From: Eledone cirrhosa
Lineage: Eukaryota
Length of the DNA: 64,000 nt
Assembly: GCA_964016885.1 (NCBI GenBank)
Contig: OZ024743.1
Location: 165,044,001-165,108,000 of the forward strand
Direction of reading: 5' to 3'
Shown here: in pieces, positions 12,682 to 63,860 of the stretch
Layout of the letters: each line of letters starts with the position of its first letter
Position numbering within the stretch: the first letter of the stretch is position 1
Made by a program: the position numbers and the translations under genes
The notes under the pieces: model-generated
The model's input: only the letters and a program-made list of their open reading frames with translations
Database searches by the model: none
What the model was told of the DNA's origin: nothing

Positions 12682-13101
12682 TGTAGTGACCTACATTCCG
12701 CGGGCTCATATACATTCTCCGTGCGTTGTTTGGCTCAGTGCAATCAATCGCCGCCAGCGGAGGAGAATGTATCTCTACACGCCCTGAGGGAAAAATTGCT
12801 GCATCGATTCTAGAAATCTCTCTCTTGCAGCTTGAACTCTGAAGGATGAACACAAACAATATGTAACGGTGAGATTTGTACTTTGGCCTGTCGGCCTTCC
12901 TTGGGCCTGGCACAATGCCACATTCCTTTTGTAACCCTTTTATGTTTTACTTCAACTATCAAATTAAACAAACATTACTTTGTGCTACAACAAATAAATA
13001 TACATATCATCTTTTATTTCTCTCGTTGTCAATATTACTATCATATCTTTCTGCTAAAGTGGTTACTCGTGGCATATATATATAATATACCAACTGCTAA
13101 A
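12682..13101 (+). mobile_element. Solo LTR, TGTAG...CTAAA, near-TSD ggtt/agtt
   Basis: GC-richer 5' part, AATAAA near the 3' end, inserted at the MITE terminus. Confidence 0.55.
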
Positions 13102-13170
13102 AGTTAAAGATAAAAAACTTTCAACTGATTTGAATTCAATAGAGACTAGCATAGAAAAATGGTAACTTAC

Positions 13171-13371
13171 TTTAGTGAACTGCAGTTTCTCTGTATGAGT
13201 GAAGCGAGAACCTTTCAATTTTGGCACGTCAGATGCTGCTATTGCTTTAATCACTTCTTTTAGGTCTTCAGACGACTGCAAATCAATTCGAATATTTTGA
13301 TGTTCTATATTTTGACGAATATGGACAGCCAGGCGCTTCTTAATTCTTTGCCGCTTCTTTTCATAATATTC
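13171..13371 (-). CDS. CCDC22: CCDC22 coding exon 7 (EYYEKKRQRIKKRL...KGSRFTHTEKLQFTK)
   Basis: ttaaag/gtaagt sites, 201 nt; KGSRFTH.EK is a conserved CCDC22 motif. Confidence 0.95.
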
Positions 13372-13617
13372 CTTTAAAACAACAATGAATACATTATATA
13401 TATCAACACTCATCATCAAGGGCCTGCATCTCTCTTACAAAAATGTTCCCATGCTCTGCCAAATGCAGTTTATTATGTTTGGTTACTAAATCCCATCAAA
13501 TTATTGATTATTTAAAAAATTATTTGCAAATCATAGTCAGTGTATTTCACTAGAAATATGGTAACGAAAGGGTTCAGAAAACAACAAAGCCCAAGAAAAC
13601 AAGAAGTATAATCATAC

Positions 13618-13787
13618 CTGCTCTGACATACGTGATGTTAAAGCAGCTTTGCTTAATTCGTTCTCCAGTTCCTGTTGTGCAGTTACCTCTTTAGCATTGA
13701 TTGCCAGTAAAGAAGCTAAAATATCGCTGTGTCTAACAGTTTGTTTAGTAACAAGTGGCAATTGATTCACATAGTAATTTTGTAACT
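13618..13787 (-). CDS. CCDC22: CCDC22 coding exon 6 (ELQNYYVNQLPLVTKQ...ASLL...TSRMSEQ)
   Basis: ttacag/gtatga sites, 170 nt; lies in ORF 13612..13806; ASLL and SR motifs as in CCDC22. Confidence 0.9.
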
Positions 13788-14437: not shown

Positions 14438-14469
<32 letters not shown>

Positions 14470-18462: not shown

Positions 18463-18826
18463 TGTAGAAGATCACGCCATCTAGCGTCGACTGTGAAGGC
18501 AGTCGATTAACTGCCTTTAGTTCTGACGTCACGTTCTGACGTCAGTAGCTGAGACTAGCTCTTGGACGATGATAACTCGGAGACAATAGACGTGCTATCT
18601 CTCTGCAGTGATCCAAAGGATGATATCACACCATGTGGCAGTATATGACGACTAAAATATATCCCAACCTAGGAGCACTAATGTATTTGAATATATTCTG
18701 TAATTGCTCCTATTAAAAAATGTTTCTATAATATAAAATTGAGGTATGTTCCTTATTCCTTGATTGACTATGTGCCAGTAAACAATATCCAATTAGACGG
18801 GATGACTGACGACCACCCCGCCTAAA
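18463..18826 (+). mobile_element. Solo LTR, TGTAG...CTAAA, 4-bp TSD gggg
   Basis: gggg|tgtagaag...ccgcctaaa|gggg. Removing it restores mariner aaaaggggttttgtttcatcaggac (compare 34610-34635). Confidence 0.8.
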
Positions 18827-28900: not shown

Positions 28901-29542
28901 AACGGCAAAGCATAGACGAACTAAGGAAAAAATTAGAAATAAGAGGGATCAGATGTTGTTTACTTGAGAGAAGACTACGTTGGTATGGTCACGTGATGCG
29001 CATGAAAGACGACAGCTGTATAAAAAAGTCCAGGGCAATAAAAATAGATGGTAGCCATGGAGGCAGACCCAGAAAAACCTGGAACGACTTGATAAATTCC
29101 GAATGTCACTGGACCGAGATCTTTGGCGCTACACAGTAATACAGAAGACCCGCCTTACCTAAGTACAAAGTGAAACCTACTACAGTCAGTAGGCACCTCT
29201 AACAAAATACACCCCTGTCCCAGCACCCCCACCCCATCCACACCGCCCCTTTCAATGTAAAGTTATGTTGGTACCACAACATCCAGGCTGAAACAAATGA
29301 GGTTGTGTAGGTGTGACGACAAAAAAACAGTCCACGCTGTAATGTGGCCGTGTAGGTAACACGGTAAAAACCTCCCAGTCCCACACTGTAAATGTGGTTG
29401 GTGTTAGGAAGGGCATCCAGCTGTAGAAAACCCGCCAGACAGTCCTATGCGAGCAAGACAACCACTCTTGCCTCAAGTGGGAAAACTCCCGTCCAAACCC
29501 ATGCAAGCGTGGAACACGGACGTTAAACGATGATGATGATGA
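25940..29542 (+). mobile_element. Near full-length RTE-clade LINE (APE + RT with inserted Cys/His finger), disrupted
   Basis: APE motifs VGTMNV, CIQET, GDLNGHVG, QVDYIL, SQHR; RT motifs QFGF, FVDLEKAFD, GVHQGSVLSP, LLYADD; (GAT)n tail. Stops/frameshifts near 26264, 26372 and about 27100. 5' end approximate. Confidence 0.95.
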
Positions 29543-29550
29543 TTAGGCAT

Positions 29551-39639: not shown

Positions 39640-39840
39640 TTTAGACGACGTGTATTAGTCTATTTATGACTTGCAAAAATATTCAGAAGAATACGAATGG
39701 CTGGTGCGTGTTTGTACAATCAGCTCCAAGAAAAATGCGTGTTGTCGCTCTGCATTTTTTTTACCGGAGTGTCTGTATTATTTTTATGACGTCCGTTTGT
39801 GACGTCAGAGCTATCACACCATAGGTGTCGCTTCGCTACA
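39640..39840 (-). mobile_element. 3' LTR (201 bp, TGTAG...CTAAA) preceded by a PPT, probably of Gypsy element A; copy at 51522-51722
   Basis: Minus strand ggaggaggg-ctata|TGTAGCGAAG...GTCGTCTAAA|cgct, then CRE relic. Confidence 0.65.
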
Positions 39841-39882
39841 TATAGCCCTCCTCCAGATGACCAATCGATGAAGAAGTAAACA

Positions 39883-40224
39883 TGTAGCAAGAGTTGCTTC
39901 CCTTGTTGTGACGATCACATCACCAGTAGCGCTCTCTAGACCGGAAGTGGTTGGAGTTACTTCCCGTTGAGGTGGCAGAACCTTCTTTGTCACTTCCGTC
40001 CTGGGACCCTATAAAGGAGAGAGCTGAAAGCTATCTCCCTCTCTTTTAACCTGCCTGGCCCTTCGGCCAGGCGTGTTCTGCCAGAGGGTATACTCTCTGG
40101 CAACCTGAACATGGTAATGTAAAGACCTCTTGGTCTCTCGCTTCCTGACCAGTCAAAAAGGGTAAACAAATAACTTTAATTCATTCTTTCATCTCTTTTG
40201 GCATGTCAACTATTCTGCTCTACA
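39883..40224 (+). mobile_element. LTR-like element, TGTAG...CTACA with TATA box; copy at 51765-52106
   Basis: Inverted termini, cctataaagg near 40010 followed by a CT-rich tract; no clear TSD. Confidence 0.55.
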
Positions 40225-43200: not shown

Positions 43201-43491
43201 TCTACTAGGCGTCGGCCACGGACGTCCACCGTCAATGCAAAATGGTGTAGAAAATCCACTCCAAGATCGGATATGGTAGGTCAGCAACCGTAAAAATCCA
43301 TTTGAATTCTCGTCAAAGATTTCTGAATTGCAGAGGAAGCGAGATTTGTTCAAAAGTCCGTATCGGCGAATGATTGACAGCTTGTAGATTCATTGATGAC
43401 TCAGGAGGAGTTTCTTTAACACAGTTTACCGGCCAAATGCTGCAGGAGGCTCCCGTATCTACGAGGAAAGAGCTTCCCGACAGGAGGTCCT
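40225..43491 (-). mobile_element. Gypsy (CsRn1 lineage) element A, pol region PR-RT-RH-IN, degenerate
   Basis: [53 protein letters not shown]. Confidence 0.92.
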
Positions 43492-43512
43492 TTTAGAATG
43501 TTAGTATCAGTG
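43492..43512 (-). mobile_element. Stub of element C 3' LTR
   Basis: tttagaatgttagtatcagtg is identical to 50768-50788; TSD tcct at 43488-43491 and 51211-51214. Confidence 0.85.
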
Positions 43513-46500
43513 TATAACGGCGGCGAAGATTCGAAACCGAATCTGAGCTTTCCCGCCTCTGGGGCAAACCGTGGTAACTTGTTTACGCTCAGGAGACTAA
43601 CCCCTTGGGAGAGGCTAAACACAGGTCAGAGGTGTTTACGCCTGACAGAAAATAGGTCAGAGGATATATCCATCTTTCTGACTTGTTTACGCTTGGCAAA
43701 CTAATCCCTTGGGAGACTAACCAAAGTTCAGAGGATATATCTATCCTTCTAACTTCAACTCTTATAAAGACAGGGATTGTTTACGCCAAAAATAGAAAAG
43801 AAGTGGATACAGACAAGACAAGACGTCTTTACAGGCTCTCGTCGCGAAAAACCAGTCTGCCATTTATTCTCACCTTCCTGGCTGATCGCTGACTCCTGCA
43901 ATACAAATAAGTAAATATACTGATACGCCGCACATACGCATTCATAGTGAGTCCAGCATTTGTACACGCACCATTCATTTCTGTTTACACATATTATAAT
44001 CGTATTCTGTGATATTTGAATTTACGTGGCTCGAAGAGCCACCAAATTATTGTATGAATATTTTGTGTCAATTATTTTATCATTCAATATTCAAATTGAA
44101 TATTGTTGTAATAAAATAAACTTTGTAACAACACTCCTGGTATGTTTCTCTACGCCGAAACCACCATACCAACAGTTACATCCATCCATCCACTTGTCGT
44201 TACAACCACACATAATATTCCGTTACAACTGGTGACCCCGTAAAACAGACACACAACCTTTTGATCATCCACAACAAACGATGTCTCTAGCACACGACGA
44301 TTCATCTACGGCAGAAATGGCAGTCAGGTCGACATTAAGGATTCCACTATTCTGGGTGCACGATCCAACACTGTGGTTCGCGCACATCGAAGCGCAGTTC
44401 GCATCGAACCGGATCGTTAGCGAGGCATCCCGTCTCACACATCTAATCGGTTCGATGTCTCCGGAGATTATGAATGAGGTTCGGGACCTCATTTTAGCAC
44501 CACCCGGCTCTGCGTCATATGACACATTTAAAAGAACATTAGTTAAGCGAACGTCGGAGTCGCAGCAGAAGCGTTTGCACCAGCTTCTCATATCGGAGGA
44601 ATTAGGAGATAAAAAGCCGACGCAACTCCTACGGAAAATGAAGCAGCTTCTGGGTGAACATAAACTCCCGGATGAAATTTTCGAGCAACTCTTCCTCCAG
44701 CGTTTACCTTCTGCCACACAAGTTGTACTAGCATCCACCAGGGAGTCCGCCACCATAGAAGAACTTGCCGAGCTGGCAGATAAGATCATGGAGGTACCAC
44801 ATCCGCACTCAACTTTAGCGAATGTGACGCCAGCCGTGCCTTCCACCAATCCTTTCCTTCAGCCCTCCAGTGCCACAGAGATGCCCGATCTACACCAGTT
44901 ACTGGCACAGCAAGCAACACAGATACAGGCCTTGACGTAACAAATTCAGGCCTTGTCACTGGGCAACCCTGCCACACGTCGGTCCAACAGCCGAACTCGC
45001 CGATTTGGTGGTCGCTCAAGAAGTCCCAGCGCATCTCGAGATTCACCAGAAATGTGTTGGTACCACCAAAGATTCGGGAGACGAGCGCAAAAGTCCAGCC
45101 ATCCCTGTTCATTTGTTTCGAAAACAAATCAGGGAAACAACACAGCCAGAAACTGAATGCGACAGACGTTTCTGGCCCTCATAACCAAAGTCGCCTATTT
45201 TTTATTCAGGATCGCGTCACAGGCACGCGTTTCCTGGTCGACACCGGTGCTGAAGTCAGCATCATCCCGGTTTCCTGCGTTCCTGGAAAAAGGAGAGAGA
45301 CACCAGCCTGGCTCCAGGCGGTGAATCACTCACATATTCCGACCTACGGAGAACAGTCCCTGATACTAAATTTGGGACTACGCCGCACTTTCCAGTGGGT
45401 ATTCGTTGTTGCTAAGCTGCCGACCCCTATTTTAGGAGCTGATTTTCTTCAGCACTTCTCGCTTCTAGTGGATCTGAAAAACCAACGTCTCGTTGACAAC
45501 TCCACTGGTCTCGCTGTGCGCGGCATAGCCGCTAGGACAGCCACAGTCAGTCCAGTCATTTCAAGATCGACAACAACAACCCGGCACAACCACATCATCA
45601 ACAAATACCCAGACGTAGCTCGACCACTATTCAACGCTTTCCCTGTAAAACATGATGTCACACACCACATAAAAACTCACGGCCCACCTGTCGCTGCGCG
45701 ACCTAGAAGGCTACCACCAGACCGTCAAACAAGAATTTCAGAACATGCTGGATCTCGGCATCATACGTCTGTCCAGCAGCAACTGGTCCTCACCCATACA
45801 CTGTGTACCCAAGAAGTCGTCGAACGACTGGCGAATCTGTGGCGACTACCGTGCACTAAACAACTGCACAGTTCCTGACTCTTATCCAGTGTCTCATCTA
45901 CAGGACTTCTCTAGCGCGCTGCACGGGGCTCGCATATTTTCGAAGATCGATCTTGTGCGAGCTTACAATCAGATATCCGTTGAGCCCGCAGATATTCCAA
46001 AGACCGCAGTCACAATACCCTTTGGAATGTTCGAATTTCTGCGTATGCCTTTCGGTTTGCGAAATGCAGCGCAGACATTCCAGCGATTCATCGATACAGT
46101 CACCAGGGGGTCTACCTTTTGTATACGCATACATTGACGACTTACTGGTGGCCAGCAGCTCCGATGAATACATGAGGAACACCTGGATCTCCTATTCACA
46201 GCGGATCAACAGAATGACGAGGAACTGCTGCAACTCCGGAAATCATCCTTGAAATTGAAGGAATGCCCGCTGCCCTCTTCTTCGGGTTATATTTGGTGCG
46301 ACATCTCCACAGGCCACGAGCGCCCATACGTGCCCCGGAAACATCGACGCGACGTTTTCTCGGCACTGCATTCTCTGGCACATCCTGGCGTCCGCGCCAC
46401 GCAGAAACTGATGGTTGCCCGCTTTGTGTGGCCCAACATCAACAAGGACACCCGCGAATGGGCTAGGAATTGCATCGCGTGCCAGAAGGCGAAAATTCAC

Positions 46501-47224
46501 CGGCACATCAAAGCCCCGATCGGTTCTTTCGCAACACCTGATGCACGGTTCCAACATGTGCATATAGACATAGTTGGACCTTTGCCTCCTTCTCACAACC
46601 ACACTCATCTTCTCACCTGTGTCGACCGATTTTCTCGCTGGCCAGAAGCTTTTCCCCTGACGGATATTACTGCGGAAACTATCGCCAAAACGCTAGTGTT
46701 TCACTGTGTTTCGCGTTTCGGCAAACCCGCGACCATCACTACGGATAGAGGACGTCAGTTCGATTCGCACCTATTTACTGAGCTGACTCGTCTCCTCGGG
46801 TGCAAACACATCCGTACAACAGCGTATCACCCTGCCGCTAACGGCATGGTAGAACGCTTACACCGCCAGCTAAAATCATCTATCAAGGCTTACGAAGACT
46901 CCACTAACTGGTTCGAATACCTCCCACTCATTCTTCTTGGTATTTGTTCCACTGTTAAGGAGGGAGTCGGAAATTCTCCGGCTGAAATGGTGTATGGCAC
47001 CGTACTCACTCTACCCGGACAAATGATTGCTCCTGTTTCGCCACAAGAACTTCCAGACCCTACAAAATTTGTGCACCGTTTACGGTCATCGATGTCGCAT
47101 CTGTCTCCTTCAGCCCCTAAACAACAGTACGTTACTTCACACATACCAAAAGACATCGATACATGGACGCATGTTTTCGTTAGAAATGACGGTATTCCAT
47201 CGCAACTTCGTCCGCCGTATTCCG
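43513..47224 (+). mobile_element. Gypsy (CsRn1 lineage) element B: 5' LTR 43513-44227, tRNA-Trp PBS, gag from 44281, pol; 3' end deleted
   Basis: LTR t(a)taacgg...ccgttaca; PBS TGGTGACCCCG; Gag FW..DP.LWF and CWYH..FG..A; GGGAAAC slippery site at 45132; [19 protein letters not shown]. Confidence 0.93.
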
Positions 47225-50200
47225 AGTGGAGTCCGGATGTGTCTGTGGACTTTAGATCTCTGACACTGTGTGCAGGAACGGCACCAGACAGTAATTTCTC
47301 GCCTCATTTTGGGCCAGAAAAATCTAGCTGTTATGAGCTTTACTGTGGCTGAAATTCCTGGGTGAGAAATGCTGTGCAAAGCAAGGAACACAATTCGACG
47401 GTGAGTCTCAGGAACATAAGGTCGTGGTGAATCCGTAGATACATCACACAGAATCTGCCTGTCGGTGGTCGACAAGGGCAGATATTTGAAGATGCAAGTC
47501 GCAAACTCGACAGAAAGAGTATCCAACGATTGGAGTGCAGGTTGGTCTGCAGCTAAACGACTTAAGTCGATCTCCTGGGATGACGAGATGGAGCTGATTA
47601 CGAAAACGTGACAATGCGTCTGGAAGCTATGTTAAGCGAGCCAGCAATGTGCTGGATATCATTTGTAAATTGCGAAACGTAATCCAGATGCCTTGTCTCT
47701 CTGGGTCAATATCTGTCGGCTTTAGACCTCAAAGGGAAGGTCAGAGGTTTGTGGTCAGTTAAAACAGTAAAATTTCTCCCCTCAAGAATGTGAGAGAAAT
47801 GTTTTACCGACAGATATATGGCTAATAATTGCCGCCCAAACGTGCTGTAACGCGTTTCTGTTGGTTTCAGCTTCCTTGAGAAAAATGCCAAAGGTTGTTG
47901 GTTTCCAGCGTTGTACTGCTGTAAAACTGCTCCCACAGCGGTATCAGATGCATCAACACAAAGCGAAAGCTTGGCCTCTGGTACCGGGTGGGCTAGCAAA
48001 GATGAACTAGCGTGTGCTGTCTTGGCAGTCTGGAAGTCTTTAAGCTGTCCTTGTGTCAAGGAAATATCCTCATTCTTCTTACGACGATTTTTCAAAATGT
48101 CAGTAAGGGAAGATAGCAAATTAGCACAATGAGGAACGAAACGCCTATAGAAATTGATTAGGCCTAAGAAGTGACGCAACTGGTGAAGTGTAGTAGGCGG
48201 AGGTAAATCCTGTATGGCTTGAACTCGCTGGGGAAGCGGCCTAATACCTTCGGCGTCGATGAGGTAGTCTAAAAAATTTAGCGAAGTGGAACCGAAAACA
48301 CACTTTGCGGGATTCACACGAACGCGGTAATCCTGAAGTCGCCGAAATAAAAGATGCATGTGACGCATATGCTCTTCCGGAGAGGAACTAGCGACGAGAA
48401 GATCGTCTATGTATCCATAAACGAAGTCCAGACCACGAGTGACTTCGTCTATGAACCGCTGAAAATTGATAGCGGCGTTCCTGAGTCCGAAAGGCATAGT
48501 AAAAAAATTCGAAGGAACCGAAAGGAGTTGTAATCGCCGTTTTCAGAATATCCTCCTTCCTGAGCGGAATTTGGTGGTAAGCTCGCACTAAATCTAGTTT
48601 TGAGAAAATCTTACACCCCTGCAATGAATGTGCGAAATCCTGGAGATGGGCGATGGGATACCTATCCGGGACGGTTATAGCATTTAACCTCCTATAATCC
48701 CCAGTGGGTCTCCAGTCGCCAGAGGTCTTGGGCACCATGTGGAACGGTGAAGCCCAAGGACTCGTAGATGGTCGAATAATGCCCAACTGCAGCATATGGT
48801 CGAACTCGGACCGTGCTGCCATTAATTTGTCCGCCGGTAAGCGGCGTGGACGCGAAAACACTGGAGCACCGGTGGTGGAAATGAAATGTTCAGTTGAGTG
48901 GGTTGGCTCAGTGACTCTAAAATTTCCATTGGTGAACTCCGGGAAAGAACCTAACAACGAATGGCAGGCGTCTCCAGCGGCAGCGATGAAGAATATGGGG
49001 CTGACTGTTGGAGCATTGGCTTTCCGGCCACGAATTGAAAAACCGGTGATGTCATCCACCAGGCGTTGACCACGGACGTCCACAGTCAAAGAGAAGTTGT
49101 GGAGGAAATTCGCTCCTAAGGTAGTGTATGGCAAATCGGCAACCGTAAAAATCCACTTAAAATCCCTACGAAGATTTAGGAATTTGAGAGGAAGCGAGAT
49201 TTGTCCGTACGTCTTTATAGACGAGTGGTTAACGGCCTGCAGAGTAACGGATGACTCCACGGGGGTATCTTTCAGGCAATGGACTGGCCAAATACTACAA
49301 GAGACTCCTGTATCCACAAGGAAACCTCTTCCCGACATAAAGTCCTTAATGAAGAAATGGCGGTTTGGTGGCTTTATGTTGAGGTCAACTGCCCCCATCA
49401 GCGGACCTCTTTGGCGTTTCCCGCCTTATGAAACGAGCAAGGTTGCACGCAGTGGTTCGCGCTCTCGGCAAAACGCTCGTGGTACCAGCATAAAGATGAA
49501 TCTGGTGACCTGGGGCGGCATCTAAAAGATTGAGATCTCCCGCAGCTGTGCGAACGGGCACCACACCAGACCTTCATCTTCTGGAGCTCCAGGGTGAGTT
49601 CCTGAATGAACCTCTGCATCGCCATAATGGCTGAACTCTCTGTAGGAGCTGCCGCGCAGATGGAATGGCCAGGTGTGGCCTGAGCTGGTTGGGAAACAGC
49701 GGTAAGGGCTTCCCTGCCTCCAGCACCCATGACTTCGAAAACTTTGTCCGCAGAGGCGGCAAGCTGATCCACTGTGCAAGTGTCCCTAATGGGGGCCAAA
49801 ATTGCCTGTACGTTGGTCGGTAGGCGCGAGAAGAACAACTGCTTCAATATGGCAGATTCCGCTACCGACCCCTCCATTAGGTCCTTCATTCACCTTAGGA
49901 GGTTCGATGGGGTGCCATCACCGATATGCTCCAATGGACCAGAGCCCTAAATCTTTTCTCTGCGGACTGTGCAGTCCGGCTGAGTATTTCAGCCTTCAGA
50001 GACTTGTACGTCGCGTCGGTTGGTGTCTCTAACACCAAGTCCATAATCGCTGGGATAAGTGCCGGCGGAATTGCACTAAGGACTAGGGGACGTTGTTGTG
50101 CTTCGACGATTCTGTCCGCCTCGAAAAATGCTTCGAGTTGGGCGAACCATAACCTTACGTCGCCCGTGTATGTAGGTAGACCAGAATGAGATGCCATTGG

Positions 50201-51210
50201 TATGCCGTAGGTAATCTGCAAAAAATTGTCTCCGTTCGGAAAAATATCTCCAAAACAAGGGCAAAAGAAAACAAAATCGCTTGTTTTTCTCTGTAAAACA
50301 ACTGGACAGGAAAAAGAATGCATCCGAGACAATGTGTAAAGGAGCGACTAACCGAGCGATGTCATTAATAAGGTATAGGCGGCGAATTTAAAACAAAAAC
50401 CAATATGGCGGACGATTTCGCGCCAAAAATACTTTTGATGGAGAAAAAAGCTGCCATCTTGTCACCCTCAAAATTTTTAGCCAGAGAAAAGTAGAAAAGA
50501 CATTCATACAATTGTTGTCTTGCTAGGAAGCTAGCAGCAATATCATCTTAATATATATTTTTTTTTGTGTGTGTTTGTGTGTAAATAAATGGAATGTTCG
50601 CTTTGCACAAATGAGGAGTTTGGTTGTTAAATGTTACAGATAAAGATGCTGAAATCAGTAAAATACAGCCAGATCAGAATGAAGCGTGTTGTTCTGTATT
50701 AAATGTTTTTTTGTTTTTTTTATATACACATAATACCACTTCCTATTTTTTTTTTCGGTGTCACCAATTTAGAATGTTAGTATCAGTGTATATTTATTAT
50801 TAAAAATAACAATAATTGCAGGTGCATGGTTTTATTTCACAGAAGTCAAATAAATTAATAGAAATAATTTTTACCACATGTTGATGGTCAGTTGGTCGCA
50901 TCTCCCAGACTGGAGCGTGTAGAGAAAGAGAGAGAGAAGACAGGATTCATCTCTAGGGAGAGAAAGCAGGAATCGTCTCTTGAAGGTTGAAGTCGTTCTT
51001 TTCAGCTGCGGCATAGGAAGTGAGAGAGAATTGCCTCACGTTCTCAAATATATAGTCCCCAAGGGGACGTAACTCCATTTAGTGCATGGATGTACCACTA
51101 GGGGTCACGACCGTCTCAAAGGGACGCTTAGTTCATGGATGTGACACTAGGGGTCACGACCGTCGCAACTCTTATCCGTTCTGAGTTCCAGCCGTAAGGG
51201 GGTCGCTACA
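47225..51210 (-). mobile_element. Gypsy (CsRn1 lineage) element C: 5' LTR 50768-51210 (TGTAG...CTAAA), PBS TGGTGACACC, gag and pol to the IN zinc finger
   Basis: Gag LWFAQLEA and CWYHERFAESANHCVQPC; GGGAAAC at 49416-49422; FLVDTG, YGYIDD, TDHKPL, HHCC. Confidence 0.93.
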
Positions 51211-51400
51211 TCCTCAATAAAGAAGTGGCGGTTTGGGTGTGTAGCACAGAGATCAGCTGCCGCCTTCAGTGGTTCTGGTCTGCGTTTCCCGAAGTTGAAT
51301 AGTTACACGGTGGCCGGCAGTGTTTTACTTTATCAGCGAAGGTGGCATGATACCAGCAAAAAGACGAATTGCTGGCGGGCGAGCTGGCGTGAAGTCGCGA
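51211..51400 (-). mobile_element. Element A gag end and pol start, separated from the rest of A by insertion of C
   Basis: Minus strand CWYHATFADKVKHCRPPC..SGN, GGGAAAC at 51284-51290; HPNRHFFIE joins DLLSGSSFLVDTG at 43491. Confidence 0.88.
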
Positions 51401-52106
51401 ACAACAAAGTTCTTGTCTTCACTGGCAGCTCGCCTTACTGAGGTGCCAGGTGATGCCTGTGAGGGTGCCTGATTATTTCAGCGCCTTAGCCTCGCCATCA
51501 CCCGTGGTAATGCTGCAAGCGTTTAGACGACGTGTATTAGTCTATTTATGACTTGCAAAAATATTCAGAAGAATACGAATGGCTGGTGCGTGTTTGTACA
51601 ATCAGCTCCAAGAAAAATGCGTGTTGTCGCTCTGCATTTTTTTTACCGGAGTGTCTGTATTATTTTTATGACGTCCGTTTGTGACGTCAGAGCTATCACA
51701 CCATAGGTGTCGCTTCGCTACATATAGCCCTCCTCCAGATGACCAATCGATGAAGAAGTAAACATGTAGCAAGAGTTGCTTCCCTTGTTGTGACGATCAC
51801 ATCACCAGTAGCGCTCTCTAGACCGGAAGTGGTTGGAGTTACTTCCCGTTGAGGTGGCAGAACCTTCTTTGTCACTTCCGTCCTGGGACCCTATAAAGGA
51901 GAGAGCTGAAAGCTATCTCCCTCTCTTTTAACCTGCCTGGCCCTTCGGCCAGGCGTGTTCTGCCAGAGGGTATACTCTCTGGCAACCTGAACATGGTAAT
52001 GTAAAGACCTCTTGGTCTCTCGCTTCCTGACCAGTCAAAAAGGGTAAACAAATAACTTTAATTCATTCTTTCATCTCTTTTGGCATGTCAACTATTCTGC
52101 TCTACA

Positions 52107-55100
52107 TAGCTCAACCTTGTTAAATAAACATTGTACATACAACCGAGTGTCTTGTTATATTCATACAACCCAGTGCGCTGTTATACATATGTAGTGAGAA
52201 GCAAGGCAAAGATAGGTAATAAACAAAAGAAATGTTTGCACAAGCAGCAAACAAAAGGCAAGGCACCCAAAATGTAACAACAGAAACATGCAAAACAATC
52301 AATTAAATGCAACAAATCGTAAGAAAGACAAAAGCAAAGGGCTGCAACAAGGGCAGCTTAAATGTACACAGTTTGACACAGTTTGTTTCCAAAAAGGCTC
52401 CAGTGGCCAGTTCATATAATACAAGTTTGGAAGAGTTATTTGGGCCAGTGGACTCTTCGACCGGAACGGGTCGTGGTCTTGTATCTTGGTGATGGGGTGG
52501 GGGCAAAGAAACAGGTGTGTGGGCAAAAGAGAAAGATGGGGGTGTATGTGGCTCAGGTGTGTGGGCCCGTTTAAGTCTATCAACCGCAATGGTCTCTGGA
52601 TCCCTTAATGTCTACAGTGAAATGTTTATCAGAACGAGCCAATACACGGTAGGGTCCAGAGTACGGTTGTGTGAGAGGTGGTCTCACAACATCGTTTCTT
52701 ACGAACACATGGGTCCACGAGGCAATATCCCTCGGGACTGCAGCTTTTAGTCTGCAGTTTGTTTCCTCGTGTCCACCGGCGGCAGGTCCTGAAAATAAGA
52801 ACGTAGACGGGATACGTAGGAAAGCGGATCTTGTGCAGCAAGATCGACAGGGGCAAGCATTTGCCCAGGTAACGCTAGAGGAGCACCATACAATAATTCG
52901 GCCGGGGAGAACCCAAGGTCCTCCTTTATTGATGACCGAATCCCCAACAACACAATAGGGAGGTACTCGCTCCAACGCGTAGAGTCAGGAGAAGTCTGTA
53001 GAGCGGCTATTAGTTGTCGGTGGAAGCGCTCCACCATTCCATTAGATGCAGGATGATATGAAGTTGTTCGGATGCGTTTAGCGCCAATGATCTTCGTCAA
53101 TTCGGAGAAGAGATTCGATTCGAACTGCCTTCCACGGTCCGTTGTAATCGTGGTTGGCACTCCAAAGCGGGCAATCTATCCTGATACTAGGGCACGCGCT
53201 GTCGTTTCAGCAGTGATGTCTTTCAAGGGGATGGTTTCAGGCCATCGCGAAAAACGATCAATAACAGTCAATAGATAAGTATGACCACCACTGACTGGCC
53301 AAGGTCCCACGATGTCCACATTCTTCTGGCCAAATATTCATGTGGACATCCCACGATGTCCACATGAATCTGGCTGTTATGAGCTTTACTGTGGCAGAAG
53401 ATCCTGGGTGGGAAATGCTGTGTAAAGCAAGAAACACAGTACGACGATGGTTTAGCGGGACGATAGGTCTCGGTGAATCCTCGGAAACGTCGCAGAGAAT
53501 CTGTCCGTTTGCGGTGGGCAATGGTAGGTATTTCAAATTACTCGTCGTAAATTCGGCTGATGTAATATCCAACGATTCCAGTGCAGGTTGGTCTGCTGCC
53601 AAGTGATTTGAATTGCTGTCGTGGGATGACGCAATCGAACTGATAAGCAATCGAGACAGGGCGTCAGCCGCTGTGTTCAATGAACCTGGAATGTGTTGGA
53701 TGTCGTTTGTGAATTGCGAGATAAAGTCGAGATGCCTTGTATCTCTGGGCGAGTACTTGTCAGACTTTGCCCTTAAAGCGAAGGTCAACAAAGGTTTATG
53801 GTCAGTATAGATTGTAAAACACCTTCCTTCGAGCATATGTGAAAAATGTTTCACGGAAAGGTAGATGGCTAACAGCTCCCGGCCAAAGGAACTGTAGCGA
53901 GTTTCTGCAGGCTTCAACTTCCTGGAGAAAAATGTCAATGGTTGTTGGTGATCGTCACTATTCTGTTGTAAGACTGCACCCACTGCACTATCCGACGCAT
54001 CAACACAAAGCGAAAGCTTGACATTGAACACTGGGTGGGGCAGCAAAGATGCACTAGCCAATGCTGATTTGGCTTTTTGAAAATCCTCGAGCTGAGTCCG
54101 AGTCAAAGAGATTTCCTTGTTCTTCTTGCGACAATTTTTCAGAATCTCAGTAAGAGAGAAGAGTAGATTAGCACAATGCGGAACAAAACGACTATAGAAA
54201 TTTATCAGTCCTAGAAATTGTCGCAACTGACGAAGTGAGGTCGGCGGAGGCAAATCCTCTATAGCCTGAACTCGTTGAGGGAGGGGTCGAATACCCTCGG
54301 AGTTAATGGCATGACCTAAAAAATTCAGTGATTCCGCACCGAAAACACATTTTGTGGGATTTATTTGAACACTGTAATCCTTGAGTCGACAAAACAAAAG
54401 ATTCAAATGACGTAAGTGCTCTTCTCTGGAGGAACTAGCAATAAGAAGATCATCAATATAAGTGTAGACGAAGTCTAAACCACGAGTGACCTCATCCATG
54501 AACCGTTGAAGTGCTAGCAGCATTCCTAAGTCCGAAAGGCATGGTAAGAAATTCGAATGATCCAAATGGAGTCGTAATGGCCGTTTTCGGAATATTTTCT
54601 TTCTTGACAGGAATTTGATGATAGGCTTCGAGAAAATTTTACATCCCTGCAATGACGATGCAAAATATTTCAGGTGTGGGATAGGGTATCTATCCGGGAC
54701 AGTTATAGCATTTAACTTCCTATAATCCCCAGTGGATCTCCAGTCGCTAGAAGTCTTGGGTAACATGTGCAACGGAGAAGCCCAAGGGCTCGTAGAAGGG
54801 GGAATTATGCCAAGCTGCAGCATGTGGTCGAACTCGGACCGTGCTGCCTTCAATTTGTCCGCAGGCAAGCGACGAGGATGTGAGAACACTGGGGCGCCAG
54901 TTGTAGAGATAAAATGCTCCGTTGCGTGAGTCGGTTCGACAACTCGAAAATTTCCCTGTGTAAGCTGTGGAAAAGAATTCAACAATGCATGATAGGGATT
55001 CCCAGCATTAGCGATGAAAAAGGTCGGGCTAACCGTTGGAAAATTAGCTTTCTGGCCACGAAGAGAAAAACCAGTAATGCCGTCTACTAGGCGTCGGCCA

Positions 55101-55373
55101 CGGACGTCCACCGTCAATGCAAAATGGTGTAGAAAATCCACTCCAAGATCGGATATGGTAGGTCAGCAACCGTAAAAATCCATTTGAATTCTCGTCAAAG
55201 ATTTCTGAATTGCAGAGGAAGCGAGATTTGTTCAAAAGTCCGTATCGGCGAATGATTGACAGCTTGTAGATTCATTGATGACTCAGGAGGAGTTTCTTTA
55301 ACACAGTTCACCGGCCAAATGCTGCAGGAGGCTCCCGTATCTACGAGGAAAGAGCTTCCCGACAGGAGGTCCT
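52107..55373 (-). mobile_element. Element A pol, duplicate copy
   Basis: ORFs 53258..55141 and 52747..53160 are near-identical to unit 1. Confidence 0.92.
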
Positions 55374-55394
55374 TTTAGAATGTTAGTATCAGTG

Positions 55395-58300
55395 TATAAC
55401 GGCGGCGAAGATTCGAAACCGAATCTGAGCTTTCCCGCCTCTGGGGCAAACCGTGGTAACTTGTTTACGCTCAGGAGACTAATCCCTTGGGAGAGGCTAA
55501 ACACAGGTCAGAGGTGTTTACGCCTGACAGAAAATAGGTCAGAGGATATATCCATCTTTCTGACTTGTTTACGCTTGGCAAACTAATCCCTTGGGAGACT
55601 AACCAAAGTTCAGAGGATATATCTATCCTTCTAACTTCAACTCTTATAAAGACAGGGATTGTTTACGCCAAAAATAGAAAAGAAGTGGATACAGACAAGA
55701 CAAGACGTCTTTACAGGCTCTCGTCGCGAAAAACCAGTCTGCCATTTATTCTCACCTTCCTGGCTGATCGCTGACTCCTGCAATACAAATAAGTAAATAT
55801 ACTGATACGCCGCACATACGCATTCATAGTGAGTCCAGCATTTGTACACGCACCATTCATTTCTGTTTACACATATTATAATCGTATTCTGTGATATTTG
55901 AATTTACGTGGCTCGAAGAGCCACCAAATTATTGTATGAATATTTTGTGTCAATTATTTTATCATTCAATATTCAAATTGAATATTGTTGTAATAAAATA
56001 AACTTTGTAACAACACTCCTGGTATGTTTCTCTACGCCGAAACCACCATACCAACAGTTACATCCATCCATCCACTTGTCGTTACAACCACACATAATAT
56101 TCCGTTACAACTGGTGACCCCGTAAAACAGACACACAACCTTTTGATCATCCACAACAAACGATGTCTCTAGCACACGACGATTCATCTACGGCAGAAAT
56201 GGCAGTCAGGTCGACATTAAGGATTCCACTATTCTGGGTGCACGATCCAACACTGTGGTTCGCGCACATCGAAGCGCAGTTCGCATCGAACCGGATCGTT
56301 AGCGAGGCATCCCGTCTCACACATCTAATCGGTTCGATGTCTCCGGAGATTATGAATGAGGTTCGGGACCTCATTTTAGCACCACCCGGCTCTGCGTCAT
56401 ATGACACATTTAAAAGAACATTAGTTAAGCGAACGTCGGAGTCGCAGCAGAAGCGCTTGCACCAGCTACTCATATCGGAGGAATTAGGAGATAAAAAGCC
56501 GACGCAACTCCTACGGAAAATGAAGCAGCTTCTGGGTGAACATAAACTCCCGGATGAAATTTTCGAGCAACTCTTCCTCCAGCGTTTACCTTCTGCCACA
56601 CAAGTTGTACTAGCATCCACCAGGGAGTCCGCCACCATAGAAGAACTTGCCGAGCTGGCAGATAAGATCATGGAGGTATCACATCCGCACTCAACTTTAG
56701 CGAATGTGACGCCAGCCGTGCCTTCCACCAATCCTTTCCTTCAGCCCTCCAGTGCCACAGAGATGCCCGATCTACACCAGTTACTGGCACAGCAAGCAAC
56801 ACAGATACAGGCCTTGACACAACAAATTCAGGCCTTGTCACTGGGCAACCCTGCCACACGTCGGTCCAACAGCCGAACTCGCCGATTTGGTGGTCGCTCA
56901 AGAAGTCCCAGCGCATCTCGAGATTCACCAGAAATGTATTGGTACCACCAAAGATTCGGGAGACGAGCGCAAAAGTGCAGCCATCCCTGATCATTTGTTT
57001 CGAAAACAAATCAGGGAAACAACACAGCCGGAAACTGAATGCGACAGACGTTTCTGGCCCTCATAACCAAAGTCGCCTATTTTTCATACAGGATCACGTC
57101 ACAGGCACGCGTTTCCTTGACGACACCGGTGCTGAAGTGAGCATCATCCCGGTTTTCTGCGTTCCTGGAAAAAGGAGAGAGACACCAGACTGGCTCCAGG
57201 CGGTGAATCACTCACATATTCCGACCTACGGAGAACAGTCCCTGATACTAAATTTGGGACTACGCCGCACTTTCCAGTGGGTATTCGTCGTAGCTAAGCT
57301 GTCGACCCCTATTTTAGGAGCTGATTTTCTTCAGCACTTTTCGCTTCTAGTGGATCTGAAAAACCAACGTCTCGTTGACAACTCCACTGGTCTCGCTGTG
57401 CGCGGCATAGCCGCTAGGACAGCCACAGTCAGTCCAGTCATTTCAAGATCGACAACAACAACCCAGCACAACCACATCATCAACAAATACCCAGACGTAG
57501 CTCAACCACTATTCAACGCTTTCCCTGTAAAACATGATGTCACACACCACATAAAAACTCACGGCCCACCTGTCGCTGCGCGACCTAGAAGGCTACCACC
57601 AGACCGTCAAACAAGAATTTCAGCACATGCTGGATCTCGGCATCATACGTCTGTCCAGCAGCAACTGGTCCTCACCCATACACTGTGTACCCAAGATCGT
57701 CGAACGACTGGCGAATCTGTGGCGACTACCGTGCACTAAACAACTGCACTGTTCCTGACTCTTATCCAGTGCCTCATCTACAGGACTTCTCTAGCGCGCT
57801 GCACGGGGCTCGCATATTTTCGAAGATCGATCTTGTGCGAGCTTACAATCAGATATCCGTTGAGCCCGCAGATATTCCAAAGACCGCAGTCTCAACACCC
57901 TTTGGAATGTTCGAATTTCTGCGTATGCCTTTCGGTTTGCGAAATGCAGCGCAGACATTCCAGCGATTCATCGATACAGTCACCAGGGGGTCTACCTTTT
58001 GTATACGCATACATTGACGACTTACTGGTGGCCAGCAGCTCCGATGAATACATGAGGAACACCTGGATCTCCTATTCACACGTTTGCGTGAATACGGAAT
58101 CGTTATCAACCCCAGCAAATGTGAGTTCGGAGTTGCGTCCCTTCATTTTCTGGGACACATCATTGACAAAGATGGTATTCGCCCACTTAAGGAGAAAGTC
58201 AAATCCATCATTGATTTTCCGCAAACTGCGAGAATTTCTTGGCCTGGTAAACTTCTACAGAAGATTTATACCCCACTGTGCAGAGATAGCCCAACCACTC

Positions 58301-59874
58301 ACAGATTTGCTGCGGCAGCGTACAACCAAAAACGCAAACATCAAGCTCAGCGAAAAAGAATGTACCGTTTTCGCTGAGTTGAAGAAAATGTTGTCCGAGG
58401 CTACAATGCTGAGTTACCCCAAACCTGACGCCCCAATGTGTTTATTGACTGATGCATCCGATTTCGGAGTTGGAGGTGTGCTTCAACAACTCTGGCGATA
58501 TTTGGCGACCTGTATCTTTTTTCTCTAAGCGATTAAAACCCGCCGAAACTAAGTACGGCACATTCAGTCGTGGATTATTGGCAGCATACCTTGCTGTCAA
58601 GCATTTTCGACACATGCTAGAAGGTCGTGTGTTCTCTATATACACCGACCACAAACCACTAGTGTACGCGTTCAACGCCAAGCCTGACCGACACTCACCC
58701 AGGGAGGTCCGACATCTGGACTTCATTTCTCAGTACACTACTGATATTCGGTACATTAAGGGTGCCACCAACTCAGCAGCTAATGCCCTATCGCGCATGG
58801 AGCTTAACGCAATCCACAACACTGCCACTATCGACCTCCAGAGGATTGCAGCGGATCAACAGAATGACGAGGAACTGCTGCAACTCCGGAAATCATCCTT
58901 GAAATTGAAGGAATGCCCGCTGCCCTCTTCTTCGGGTTATATTTGGTGCGACATCTCCACAGGCCACGAGCGCCCATACGTGCCCCGGAAACATCGACGC
59001 GACGTTTTCTCGGCACTGCATTCTCTGGCACATCCTGGCGTCCGCGCCACGCAGAAACTGATGGTTGCCCGCTTTGTGTGGCCCAACATCAACAAGGACA
59101 CCCGCGAATGGGCTAGGAATTGCATCGCGTGCCAGAAGGCGAAAATTCACCGGCACATCAAAGCCCCGATCGGTTCTTTCGCAACACCTGATGCACGGTT
59201 CCAACATGTGCATATAGACATAGTTGGACCTTTGCCTCCTTCTCACAACCACACTCATCTTCTCACCTGTGTCGACCGATTTTCTCGCTGGCCAGAAGCT
59301 TTTCCCCTGACGGATATTACTGCGGAAACTATCGCCAAAACGCTAGTGTTTCACTGTGTTTCGCGTTTCGGCAAACCCGCGACCATCACTACGGATAGAG
59401 GACGTCAGTTCGATTCGCACCTATTTACTGAGCTGACTCGTCTCCTCGGGTGCAAACACATCCGTACAACAGCGTATCACCCTGCCGCTAACGGCATGGT
59501 AGAACGCTTACACCGCCAGCTAAAATCATCTATCAAGGCTTACGAAGACTCCACTAACTGGTTCGAATACCTCCCACTCATTCTTCTTGGTATTTGTTCC
59601 ACTGTTAAGGAGGGAGTCGGAAATTCTCCGGCTGAAATGGTGTATGGCACCGTACTCACTCTACCCGGACAAATGATTGCTCCTGTTTCGCCACAAGAAC
59701 TTCCAGACCCTACAAAATTTGTGCACCGTTTACGGTCATCGATGTCGCATCTGTCTCCTTCAGCCCCTAAACAACAGTACGTTACTTCACACATACCAAA
59801 AGACATCGATACATGGACGCATGTTTTCGTTAGAAATGACGGTATTCCATCGCAACTTCGTCCGCCGTATTCCG
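55395..59874 (+). mobile_element. Element B, duplicate copy retaining the RT C-terminus and RNase H
   Basis: Gag 56163..56990; RT, RH and IN through ORF 58452..60002. Confidence 0.93.
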
Positions 59875-62800
59875 AGTGGAGTCCGGATGTGTCTGTGGAC
59901 TTTAGATCTCTGACACTGTGTGCAGGAACGGCACCAGACAGTAATTTCTCGCCTCATTTTGGGCCAGAAAAATCTAGCTGTTATGAGCTTTACTGTGGCT
60001 GAAATTCCTGGGTGAGAAATGCTGTGCAAAGCAAGGAACACAATTCGACGGTGAGTCTCAGGAACATAAGGTCGTGGTGAATCCGTAGATACATCACACA
60101 GAATCTGCCTGTCGGTGGTCGACAAGGGCAGATATTTGAAGATGCAAGTCGCAAACTCGACAGAAAGAGTATCCAACGATTGGAGTGCAGGTTGGTCTGC
60201 AGCTAAACGACTTAAGTCGATCTCCTGGGATGACGAGATGGAGCTGATTACGAAAACGTGACAATGCGTCTGGAAGCTATGTTAAGCGAGCCAGCAATGT
60301 GCTGGATATCATTTGTAAATTGCGAAACGTAATCCAGATGCCTTGTCTCTCTGGGTCAATATCTGTCGGCTTTAGACCTCAAAGGGAAGGTCAGAGGTTT
60401 GTGGTCAGTTAAAACAGTAAAATTTCTCCCCTCAAGAATGTGAGAGAAATGTTTTACCGACAGATATATGGCTAATAATTGCCGCCCAAACGTGCTGTAA
60501 CGCGTTTCTGTTGGTTTCAGCTTCCTTGAGAAAAATGCCAAAGGTTGTTGGTTTCCAGCGTTGTACTGCTGTAAAACTGCTCCCACAGCGGTATCAGATG
60601 CATCAACACAAAGCGAAAGCTTGGCCTCTGGTACCGGGTGGGCTAGCAAAGATGAACTAGCGTGTGCTGTCTTGGCAGTCTGGAAGTCTTTAAGCTCTCC
60701 TTGTGTCAAGGAAATATCCTCATTCTTCTTACGACGATTTTTCAAAATGTCAGTAAAGGAAGATAGCAAATTAGCACAATGAGGAACAAAACGCCTATAG
60801 AAATTGATTAGGCCTAAGAAGTGACGCAACTGGTGAAGTGTAGTAGGCGGAGGTAAATCCTGTATGGCTTGAACTCGCTGGGGAAACGGCCTAATACCTT
60901 CGGCGTCAATGAGGTGGTCTAAAAAATTTAGCGAAGTGGAACCGAAAACACACTTTGCGGGATTCACACGAACGCGGTAATCCTGAAGTCGCCGAAATAA
61001 AAGATGCATGTGACGCATATGCTCTTCCGGAGAGGAACTAGCGACGAGAAGATCGTCTATGTATCCATAAACGAAGTCCAGACCACGAGTGACTTCGTCT
61101 ATGAACCGCTGAAAATTGATAGCGGCGTTCCTGAGTCCGAAAGGCATAGTAAAAAAATTCGAAGGAACCGAAAGGAGTTGTAATCGCCGTTTTCAGAATA
61201 TCCTCCTTCCTGAGCGGAATTTGGTGGTAAGCTCGCACTAAATCTAGTTTTGAGAAAATCTTACACCCCTGCAATGAAGATGCGAAATCCTGGAGATGGG
61301 CGATGGGATACCTATCCGGGACGGTTATAGCATTTAACCTCCTATAATCCCCAGTGGGTCTCCAGTCGCCAGAGGTCTTGGGCACCATGTGGAACGGTGA
61401 AGCCCAATGACTCGTAGATGGGCGAATAATGCCCAGCTGCAGTATATGGTCGAACTCGGACCGTGCTGCCATTAATTTGTCCGCCGGTAAGCGGCGTGGA
61501 CGCGAAAACACTGGAGCACCGGTGGTGGAAATGAAATGTTCAGTTGAGTGGGTTGGCTCAGTGACTCTAAAATTTCCATTGGTGAACTCCGGGAAAGAAC
61601 CTAACAACGAATGGCAGGCGTCTCCAGCGGCAGCGATGAAGAATATGGGGCTGACTGTTGGAGCATTGGCTTTCCGGCCACGAATTGAAAAACCGGTGAT
61701 GTCATCCACCAGGCGTTGACCACGGACGTCCACAGTCAAAGAGAAGTTGTGGAGGAAATTCGCTCCTAAGGTAGTGTATGGCAAATCGGCAACCGTAAAA
61801 ATCCACTTAAAATCCCTACGAAGATTTAGGAATTTGAGAGGAAGCGAGATTTGTCCGTACGTCTTTATAGACGAGTGGTTAACGGCCTGCAGAGTAACGG
61901 ATGACTCCACGGGGGTATCTTTCAGGCAATGGACTGGCCAAATACTACAAGAGACTCCTGTATCCACAAGGAAACCTCTTCCCGACATAAGGTCCTTAAT
62001 GAAGAAATGGCGGTTTGGTGGCTTTATGTTGAGGTCAACTGCCCCCATCAGCGGACCTCTTTGGCGTTTCCCGCCTTATGAAACGAGCAAGGTTGCACGC
62101 AGTGGTTCGCGCTCTCGGCAAAACGCTCGTGGTACCAGCATAAAGATGAATCTGGTGACCTGGGGCGGCATCTAAAAGATTGAGATCTCCCGCAGCTGTG
62201 CGAACGGGCACCACACCAGACCTTCATCTTCTGGAGCTCCAGGGTGAGTTCCTGAATGAACCTCTGCATCGCCATAATGGCTGAACTCTCTGTAGGAGCT
62301 GCCGCGCAGATGGAATGGCCAGGTGTGGCCTGAGCTGGTTGGGAAACAGCGGTAAGGGCTTCCCTGCCTCCAGCACCCATGACTTCGAAAACTTTGTCCG
62401 CAGAGGCGGCAAGCTGATCCACTGTGCAAGTGTCCCTAATGGGGGCCAAAATTGCCTGTACGTTGGTCGGTAGGCGCGAGAAGAACAACTGCTTCAATAT
62501 GGCAGATTCCGCTACCGACCCCTCCATTAGGTCCTTCATTCGCCTTAGGAGGTTCGATGGGGTGCCATCACCGATATGCTCCAATGGACCAGAGCCCTAA
62601 ATCTTTTCTCTGCGGACTGTGCAGTCCGGCTGAGTATTTCAGCCTTCAGAGACTTGTACGTCGCGTCGGTTGGTGTCTCTAACACCAAGTCCATAATCGC
62701 TGGGATAAGTGCCGGCGGAATTGCACTAAGGACTAGGGGACGTTGTTGTGCTTCGACGATTCTGTCCGCCTCGAAAAATGCTTCGAGTTGGGCGAACCAT

Positions 62801-63860
62801 AACCTTACGTCGCCCGTGTATGTAGGTAGACCAGAATGAGATGCCATTGGTATGCCGTAGGTAATCTGCAAAAAATTGTCTCCGTTCGGAAAAATATCTC
62901 CAAAACAAGGGCAAAAGAAAACAAAATCGCTTGTTTTTCTCTGTAAAACAACTGGACAGGAAAAAGAATGCATCCGAGACAATGTGTAAAGGAGCGACTA
63001 ACCGAGCGATGTCATTAATAAGGTATAGGCGGCGAATTTAAAACAAAAACCAATATGGCGGACGATTTCGCGCCAAAAATACTTTTGATGGAGAAAAAAG
63101 CTGCCATCTTGTCACCCTCAAAATTTTTAGCCAGAGAAAAGTAGAAAAGACATTCATACAATTGTTGTCTTGCTAGGAAGCTAGCAGCAATATCATCTTA
63201 ATATATATTTTTTTTTGTGTGTGTTTGTGTGTAAATAAATGGAATGTTCGCTTTGCACAAATGAGGAGTTTGGTTGTTAAATGTTACAGATAAAGATGCT
63301 GAAATCAGTAAAATACAGCCAGATCAGAATGAAGCGTGTTGTTCTGTATTAAATGTTTTTTTGTTTTTTTTATATACACATAATACCACTTCCTATTTTT
63401 TTTTTCGGTGTCACCAATTTAGAATGTTAGTATCAGTGTATATTTATTATTAAAAATAACAATAATTGCAGGTGCATGGTTTTATTTCACAGAAGTCAAA
63501 TAAATTAATAGAAATAATTTTTACCACATGTTGATGGTCAGTTGGTCGCATCTCCCAGACTGGAGCGTGTAGAGAAAGAGAGAGAGAAGACAGGATTCAT
63601 CTCTAGGGAGAGAAAGCAGGAATCGTCTCTTGAAGGTTGAAGTCGTTCTTTTCAGCTGCGGCATAGGAAGTGAGAGAGAATTGCCTCACGTTCTCAAATA
63701 TATAGTCCCCAAGGGGACGTAACTCCATTTAGTGCATGGATGTACCACTAGGGGTCACGACCGTCTCAAAGGGACGCTTAGTTCATGGATGTGACACTAG
63801 GGGTCACGACCGTCGCAACTCTTATCCGTTCTGAGTTCCAGCCGTAAGGGGGTCGCTACA
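59875..63860 (-). mobile_element. Element C, duplicate copy (5' LTR 63418-63860)
   Basis: Near-identical to 47225-51210 at offset 12650. Confidence 0.93.

What the first reader, a model, noticed from the sequence alone, without database searches (positions are those of the whole stretch)
12682..63860. Four different LTRs end in TGTAG...CTAAA instead of TG...CA
Seen: solo LTR 18463-18826 (gggg|TGTAG...CTAAA|gggg), solo LTR 12682-13101 (ggtt|TGTAG...CTAAA|agtt), the PPT-preceded LTR 39640-39840 (minus), and both LTR ends of element C (CTAAA|t-PBS at 50768; CTAAA|TSD at 43492). They differ in sequence and length (364, 420, 201, 443 bp). Established: retroviral-type integrases normally join a conserved CA-3' at both ends. 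Inference: the same C-to-A change in independent insertions is unlikely to be decay, so a CsRn1 sub-lineage may use an asymmetric AA-3' right end. TG..CA-constrained LTR finders would miss these. Element B and LTR 39883-40224 end in CA and act as internal contrasts. I cannot tell whether this has already been described.
Basis: partly seen in the sequence, partly recalled or inferred. Interest (0 to 1): 0.72.

Follow-up and report, generated by a model that had tools for sequence, protein, structure and literature searches.

The report
Known non-CA ends of CsRn1 retrotransposons
Several jumping-gene families here really do end in AA (others in TA) instead of the textbook CA and multiplied that way, but this quirk was already described for their group, the CsRn1-type elements, and likely reflects an insertion enzyme that tolerates change at the second-last base.

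Summary
All four LTRs start TGTAG and end CTAAA. In genome copies 88 of 99 scored ends are AA and none is CA. An exact 4-bp target duplication sits at that boundary in 21 of 39 insertions, against at most 2 at any shifted 4-bp boundary. The elements carry the CsRn1 marks: tRNA-Trp-type PBS, CHCC Gag, GPY, 4-bp TSD. Bae et al. 2008 (PMC2582038) already report TGT...AAA and TGT...ATA ends for CsRn1-like elements. Corrections: the two 'CA contrasts' are themselves non-canonical (39883-40303 is TG...TA on the + strand; element B is TA...CA); two of the four LTRs share nearly the same pol; AA is not one clade (p-AU 0.0001), although AA+TA families together separate from CA families in this genome. 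Both ends of all six families read Y-T-A-N-A-3', so integrase likely tolerates change at the penultimate base (inferred, not assayed). An unchecked earlier scan note reports a related TT...AA element in another genome. Interest is low, with a real annotation caveat.

The parts
12682..13101 (+). Solo LTR, family S2, TG...AA; holds an earlier CTAAA at 13058 followed by a decayed PBS-like stretch (duplicated U5 end)
   Evidence: TSD ggtt/agtt
18463..18826 (+). Solo LTR, family S1, TG...AA, inserted in an older repeat
   Evidence: TSD gggg/gggg
39640..39840 (-). 3' LTR of host element A, TG...AA (second copy 51522-51722); PPT just upstream at about 39841-39856
   Evidence: TSD cgct shared with the 5' LTR beyond the window
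39883..40303 (+).
   Evidence: TSD imperfect in this copy, exact in 11 of 14 family insertions
40304..43491 (-). Internal region of A: protease remainder, RT, RNase H, integrase (broken frames), 3' UTR
43492..43512 (-). Last 21 bases of the 3' LTR of element C, ending CTAAA, then TSD agga (second copy from 55374)
43513..44227 (+). 5' LTR of element B, TA...CA, inserted in C's 3' LTR; PBS follows after a 2-base spacer (second copy from 55395)
44228..47221 (+). Internal region of B: Gag (DUF7041), protease, integrase; 3' part missing; this copy lacks about 770 bases present in the second copy
47222..50767 (-). Internal region of C: PBS, Gag with CX2HX9CX3C, RT, RNase H, start of integrase
50768..51210 (-). 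5' LTR of element C, TG...AA, 1-base spacer then PBS (second copy 63418-63860)
51211..51400 (-). Gag end (CX2HX9CX3C) and protease start of host element A, upstream of the C insertion
51401..64000 (.). Near-identical tandem second copy of the whole nest 39519-51400 (99.4-99.7%); not an independent observation

Best explanation
These are CsRn1-type Ty3/Gypsy retrotransposons whose LTR ends read Y-T-A-N-A-3' on the joined strand, and whose integrase likely tolerates C, A or T at the second-last base, so that a chance change there is copied into all descendants and becomes fixed in a family. Shown: the ends, their constancy within families, the 4-bp duplication at exactly those ends, and the spread of three variants (TG..AA, TG..TA, TA..CA) beside TG..CA. 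From established retroelement replication (own knowledge; the same logic is argued for TARE1 in PMC3701649): the right end of the cDNA is templated by U5 of the 5' LTR and the left end by U3 of the 3' LTR, so a change at one end is passed to both LTRs of the progeny without a matching change at the other end, which gives the asymmetry. Inferred: integrase trims the 1-2 spacer bases between LTR end and PBS, joins the terminal A, and relies on the inner Y-T-A and the terminal A rather than on CA.
For: 88 of 99 AA, 0 CA in four families; TSD register 21 of 39 against at most 2; position-wise tallies give the same YTANA pattern at both ends of six families; very young pairs (LTR identity 99.5-100%: L275, L276, L287, L313, L326, L331) have TA ends in both LTRs with exact TSDs; in a PBS-anchored sample not chosen by LTR similarity, 28 of 60 loci had LTR pairs and 19 resolved: 11 TG..TA, 4 TG..AA, 3 TG..CA, 1 TA..TA; genome-wide exact patterns before TGGTGACCCCG: TATA 421, TAAA 356, TACA 202, reversed-pattern controls 1-2 each; catalytic D, D, E and the YHPxxNGxxERxHRQLK stretch are the same in AA, TA and CA families and in foreign homologues; L332 ends CA while its close relatives L313 and L326 end TA; published TGT...AAA/ATA.
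Against: No biochemical test. End type follows the pol tree in this genome (AA+TA on one side, CA on the other, SH-aLRT 100, after dropping three rows), which a fully indifferent integrase need not produce; 25 integrase columns separate the two lineages. GA ends appear only in single copies, so tolerance may not be complete. No family has both ends non-CA, so one CA end may still be needed.
Confidence: 0.75

Rival explanations
1. One lineage of these integrases changed specificity and now prefers a non-CA right end (co-evolution of enzyme and att site).
For: The AA+TA lineage is one well-supported branch with no CA-ended row among 23; it carries W five residues after the first catalytic D where B, E and 113 of 116 foreign proteins have L, among 25 diagnostic columns.
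Against: One origin gives no independent contrast; the same enzyme must still join its own CA left end (TG start in 93 of 99 copies); both A and T occur in the lineage; two AA rows fell in the CA lineage in the full tree (L293, a long-branch copy; L318, an S2-type LTR on an E-type interior); B changed the left end instead.
Confidence: 0.15
2. Integrase needs one canonical CA end per cDNA and tolerates loss at the other (a restricted form of the best explanation).
For: All variant families seen keep CA at one end: C, S1, A, S2, D, G, H at the left, B at the right; 18 of 19 resolved pairs start TG.
Against: L320 has TA at both junctions with an exact TSD, though a later 2-base deletion explains it equally well; AtRE1 is listed as TA...TA in 10.1101/137141; an unchecked scan note reports TT...AA in another genome.
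Confidence: 0.3
3. The AA ends are decay after insertion or mis-set boundaries of ordinary TG..CA elements.
For: The window copies are old and nested (A's LTRs are 91% identical); a 5-bp duplication with the end one base earlier fits 10 of 39 insertions; S2 ends were set by hand.
Against: 0 of 99 CA ends; the 4-bp register fits 21 of 39 and every 5-bp fit is explained by an A just outside the duplication; no shift restores CA; natural empty sites fix the C boundary.
Confidence: 0.02

Closest known systems
CsRn1 clade of Ty3/Gypsy: PwRn1 and AgCR-1 to -14 (Bae et al. 2008, PMC2582038; passages and sections 5 and 9 read; Additional file 1, an image of the termini, not seen)
   Same: TGT...AAA and TGT...ATA ends, 4-bp TSD, tRNA-Trp PBS, CX2HX9CX3C Gag, GPY/F motif, no env
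   Different: Here TG..CA and TA..CA families occur beside them; a flank preference R|NNNN|Y is seen, whereas that paper saw no target preference; per-family copy counts and a tree of end types are added
CsRN1 LTR model of Benachenhou et al. 2013 (PMC3601003; passages and Table 3 read)
   Same: 3' integrase motif MSYYAMA, that is A or C at the second-last base
   Different: Does not include T at that position or a TA start; its 5' motif is TGTGGYG rather than TGTAG
TARE1 of tomato, TA...CA (PMC3701649; passages read)
   Same: Same end type as family B and the same route: one end change multiplied by retrotransposition
   Different: Plant Copia element with 5-bp TSD; B is an animal CsRn1-type Gypsy with 4-bp TSD
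Other non-TGCA elements: Tos17 TG..GA, AtRE1 TA..TA, soybean TG..CT (10.1101/137141; passages read, Table S2 not seen) and Drosophila errantiviruses AGT..AnT (PMC5408687; passages read)
   Same: Show that CA is not required by all LTR-element integrases
   Different: Other lineages and other end sequences

Membership tests
CsRn1 clade (Ty3/Gypsy) | Gypsy domain order PR-RT-RH-IN | tested here: met
   Pfam hits in order along A, B and C; best solved relative Ty3 Gag-Pol, E 3.4e-35
CsRn1 clade (Ty3/Gypsy) | tRNA-Trp PBS, TGGTGA(G/C)CCCGT/A as given in PMC2582038 | tested here: met
   TGGTGACCCC or a near variant 1-2 bases after the 5' LTR in all six families; C has TGGTGACACCG; not compared with the host's own tRNA gene
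CsRn1 clade (Ty3/Gypsy) | 4-bp target-site duplication | tested here: met
   21 of 39 (AA families), 11 of 14 (D), 14 of 16 (B) exact at the stated ends
CsRn1 clade (Ty3/Gypsy) | Gag motif CX2HX9CX3C | tested here: met
   Found in window A and C and in copies of S1, B, E, G, H (22 of 38 pol-bearing copies scanned); not found in the window stretch of B scanned; S2 and D not scanned (no pol)
CsRn1 clade (Ty3/Gypsy) | GPY/F motif in integrase; no env | tested here: met
   GPY, GPF or a one-letter variant in the 36 of 38 rows that cover the column; elements of 4.5-5.9 kb and no env hit among 17 window ORFs scanned; chromodomain not searched separately
CsRn1 clade (Ty3/Gypsy) | LTR ends TGT...AAA or TGT...ATA | tested here: met
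   Met for C, S1, S2, A, D; B and E differ (TA..CA, TG..CA), within the MSYYAMA right-end motif
CsRn1 clade (Ty3/Gypsy) | Pol phylogeny with named CsRn1, Kabuki or PwRn1 references | not testable with these tools
   No named reference among the 120 listed of 3049 hits; the nearest named hits are from tapeworms, a fluke and a sea cucumber at 47-51%; my trees have no named clade member and no outgroup

The most novel reading that the evidence does not exclude
CsRn1-type integrases recognise Y-T-A-N-A rather than CA at either cDNA end, and one lineage in this genome has abandoned CA at its right end together with a change beside the active site (L to W after the first catalytic D); about four in five Trp-primed LTR ends counted here are non-CA, so motif-bound LTR finders would miss most of this clade in animal genomes, and the clade offers a natural series (CA, AA, TA; left or right) for testing why the CA is conserved elsewhere.
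Probability: 0.15. Interest if true: 0.5.

Novelty: new member of a known kind. Interest (0 to 1): 0.22.

Why it matters
Mainly for annotation: 777 of 979 exact pattern hits before a Trp PBS have TAAA or TATA rather than TACA, and many of the TACA hits belong to a family that starts TA, so searches that demand TG..CA with no mismatch (the setting used in the LTR_retriever benchmark) would not match these ends. I did not run such a finder, and whether TG..AA is among LTR_retriever's seven extra motifs could not be seen. For mechanism, the clade is a natural test of how much of the CA rule an integrase needs. The core observation has been in print since 2008.

Tried and rejected
Decay or wrong boundaries: rejected. 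A 5-bp TSD with a CTAA end: rejected, 10 of 39 against 21 of 39. AA as a single clade: rejected (L318, L293 and L301 were left out of that tree, L189 had no usable pol on its strand, and rows with low coverage were left out of both trees). The two CA contrasts as canonical controls: rejected. A compensating change in the integrase catalytic helix: none seen. Base contacts from the Ty3 intasome paper (PMC8632968, passages): nothing on the terminal CA in the passages returned. Literature: eight searches; one search returned only PMC2582038 for the written forms of TG..AA and TG..TA; one search returned no animal Gypsy TA..CA paper among 14 of 15 listed (titles and abstract starts only); one search gave nothing usable on single-end att mutants. 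PMC12471100 (passages) gives TGT..ACA for Saci2, a different clade; PMC6238403 (passages) lists CsRN1 in molluscs without end sequences in the passages seen. The journal version of the LTR_retriever paper was not held under the recalled id tried. Repbase, Dfam and GyDB could not be searched. No tRNA gene in the window. No structure prediction, complex job or read mapping was run.

Full report
Observation. The region 39519-51400 is a nest: host element A (minus strand; 3' LTR 39640-39840, 5' LTR just past the window) holds a solo LTR D in its 3' UTR and element C in its protease; element B sits in C's 3' LTR, and the 3' parts of B and C are missing. The nest is repeated in tandem from 51401, so second copies were not counted. 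A has cgct on both outer sides; C has agga on both, and natural uninterrupted copies of A carry agga once there (4 of 5 printed).

Genome copies. Each LTR was searched in G000; 40 candidates were scored per search out of 117-2126 and the best 30 fetched. After removing 7 duplicate loci, 99 of 113 could be scored; the last two bases were read from each copy after a motif ending two bases earlier. AA: C 18 of 23, S1 27 of 29, S2 17 of 18, A 26 of 29; CA: none. S2 ends were set by hand from motif hits, and one C end (L027) was mis-called by the script (one search shows CTAAA with an exact TSD). For 39 insertions (solo LTRs and pairs; L104 enters twice) the 4-bp duplication is exact at the stated boundary in 21, one mismatch off in 13, absent in 5; shifting either boundary by 1-3 bases gives at most 2; the best 5-bp reading gives 10. 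Limit: these copies are the best hits to the window LTRs.

The contrasts. Homology of D runs to 40303, the PBS follows TTATA in paired copies, and 26 of 26 scored copies (of 29) end TA with exact TSD in 11 of 14 insertions: D is TG..TA on the plus strand. B starts TATAAC at 43513, after the PPT in 3' LTRs, and ends TTACA; 27 of 28 copies agree at each end and the TSD is exact in 14 of 16. So none of the six LTR families in the window is TG..CA. Read as the joined strand, all twelve ends fit Y-T-A-N-A-3'.

A sample not chosen by LTR similarity. An exact 17-base Trp PBS occurs 428 times. Of the first 60 taken (all on C1), 28 had an LTR pair and 19 resolved with an exact TSD: 11 TG..TA, 4 TG..AA, 3 TG..CA, 1 TA..TA; two of these lie in TA repeats, where the register is ambiguous; 9 did not resolve. 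Whole-genome counts of TAAA, TACA and TATA 1-2 bases before TGGTGACCCCG are 356, 202 and 421. These are pattern hits, not copy numbers; other ends (TTTA, TTCA) were seen but not counted, and family C's variant PBS is excluded.

What they are. PR-RT-RH-IN order, Trp-type PBS, 4-bp TSD, CX2HX9CX3C in Gag and GPY in integrase are the features PMC2582038 gives for the CsRn1 clade. A tree with named references could not be built; the nearest named proteins come from tapeworms, a fluke and a sea cucumber. The host was not determined by my calls. The copies examined are mostly broken by stops and frameshifts.

Is AA a lineage? In a quick IQ-TREE tree of 51 rows (35 own copies, 16 foreign; the careful search did not finish) own copies form two branches: A, S1, C, G, H and others (18 AA, 5 TA, no CA) and B plus E (10 CA, 2 AA, 1 ambiguous). 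The two AA rows in the second branch are a long-branch E copy and a chimera. Without those three rows, AA as one clade is rejected (p-AU 0.000112) while AA+TA against CA is one branch at SH-aLRT 100 (unrooted, no bootstrap). A and S1 intermix, so they are one integrase family with two LTRs. The catalytic residues and the helix after them do not differ between lineages; 25 other integrase columns do, among them W for L five residues after the first catalytic D, but a single origin cannot show cause.

Mechanism. Shown: inherited, family-fixed ends with A, T or C at the second-last base, on the right end or (B) the left. From established knowledge (recalled; argued for TARE1 in PMC3701649): each cDNA end is templated from a different LTR, so a one-sided change is copied into both LTRs of the progeny. 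Inferred: integrase removes the 1-2 spacer bases seen before the PBS, joins the terminal A and tolerates the base before it. Rivals are lineage-specific co-evolution (0.15) and a need for one CA end (0.3, compatible with the main reading; every variant family here keeps one).

What is known. PMC2582038 says the usual TGT...ACA is changed to TGT...AAA or TGT...ATA in PwRn1 and the AgCR elements; PMC3601003 gives MSYYAMA. Non-CA ends are also known in plants and errantiviruses. I did not find TA..CA for an animal Gypsy element, but Repbase, Dfam, GyDB, most subscription papers, the image supplement of PMC2582038 and Table S2 of the LTR_retriever preprint were not seen and may list it. Two earlier scan notes bear on this; I did not test them.

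Verdict. Real, inherited and already described for this clade; the window adds new families, a TA..CA variant, counts, and a target-flank bias. Novelty: new member of a known kind. Interest 0.22.

Noticed in passing
window 43513-44227 (+); L151-L180, L201-L205: Family B starts TATAAC and ends TTACA (27 of 28 copies each; TSD 14 of 16): a TA..CA Gypsy family with an autonomous-type interior. I found this end type described only for plant Copia in the searches run.
   Followed up: yes
46 insertions with exact TSD, L005-L179: Target flanks are biased: purine before the duplication in 38 of 46, pyrimidine after it in 44 of 46 (28 and 35 of 36 away from microsatellites); weaker purine/pyrimidine bias at TSD positions 2 and 3 and at 3 bases out. 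PMC2582038 reported no preference.
   Followed up: partly
window 18463-18826 and 39640-43491; L186-L198: Families S1 and A have unrelated-looking LTRs (364 and 201 bp) on about 92% identical pol; L318 joins an S2-type 5' LTR to an E-type interior. LTR exchange between families seems common.
   Followed up: partly
window 12682-13101; L063, L065, L081: Some S2 LTRs contain an inner CTAAA plus decayed PBS and then a second CTAAA end 43-82 bases on, as if the LTR grew by duplicating its U5-PBS end.
   Followed up: no
window 39519-51400 and 51401-64000: Tandem duplication of the whole nested cluster at 99.4-99.7% identity, one copy lacking about 770 bases of B; real duplication or assembly artefact not tested.
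   Followed up: no
L320: Young element (LTR identity 99.5%) whose 5' LTR lacks the first TG yet has an exact 4-bp TSD; over-trimming at integration or a later deletion.
   Followed up: no
L189 (G000:C1:223530500-223536600): S1 element with LTR pieces and pol in opposite orientations, yet ctag on both outer sides; an earlier scan note describes inverted-ended CsRn1 insertions in this genome.
   Followed up: no
window 26406-29139 (+): LINE with endonuclease and RT frames; a PHD-finger hit lies right after the RT domain.
   Followed up: no
L190, L191, L206-L211 and many of L274-L333: Abundant 2-3 kb non-autonomous Trp-primed elements without pol, several with 99-100% identical LTRs.
   Followed up: partly
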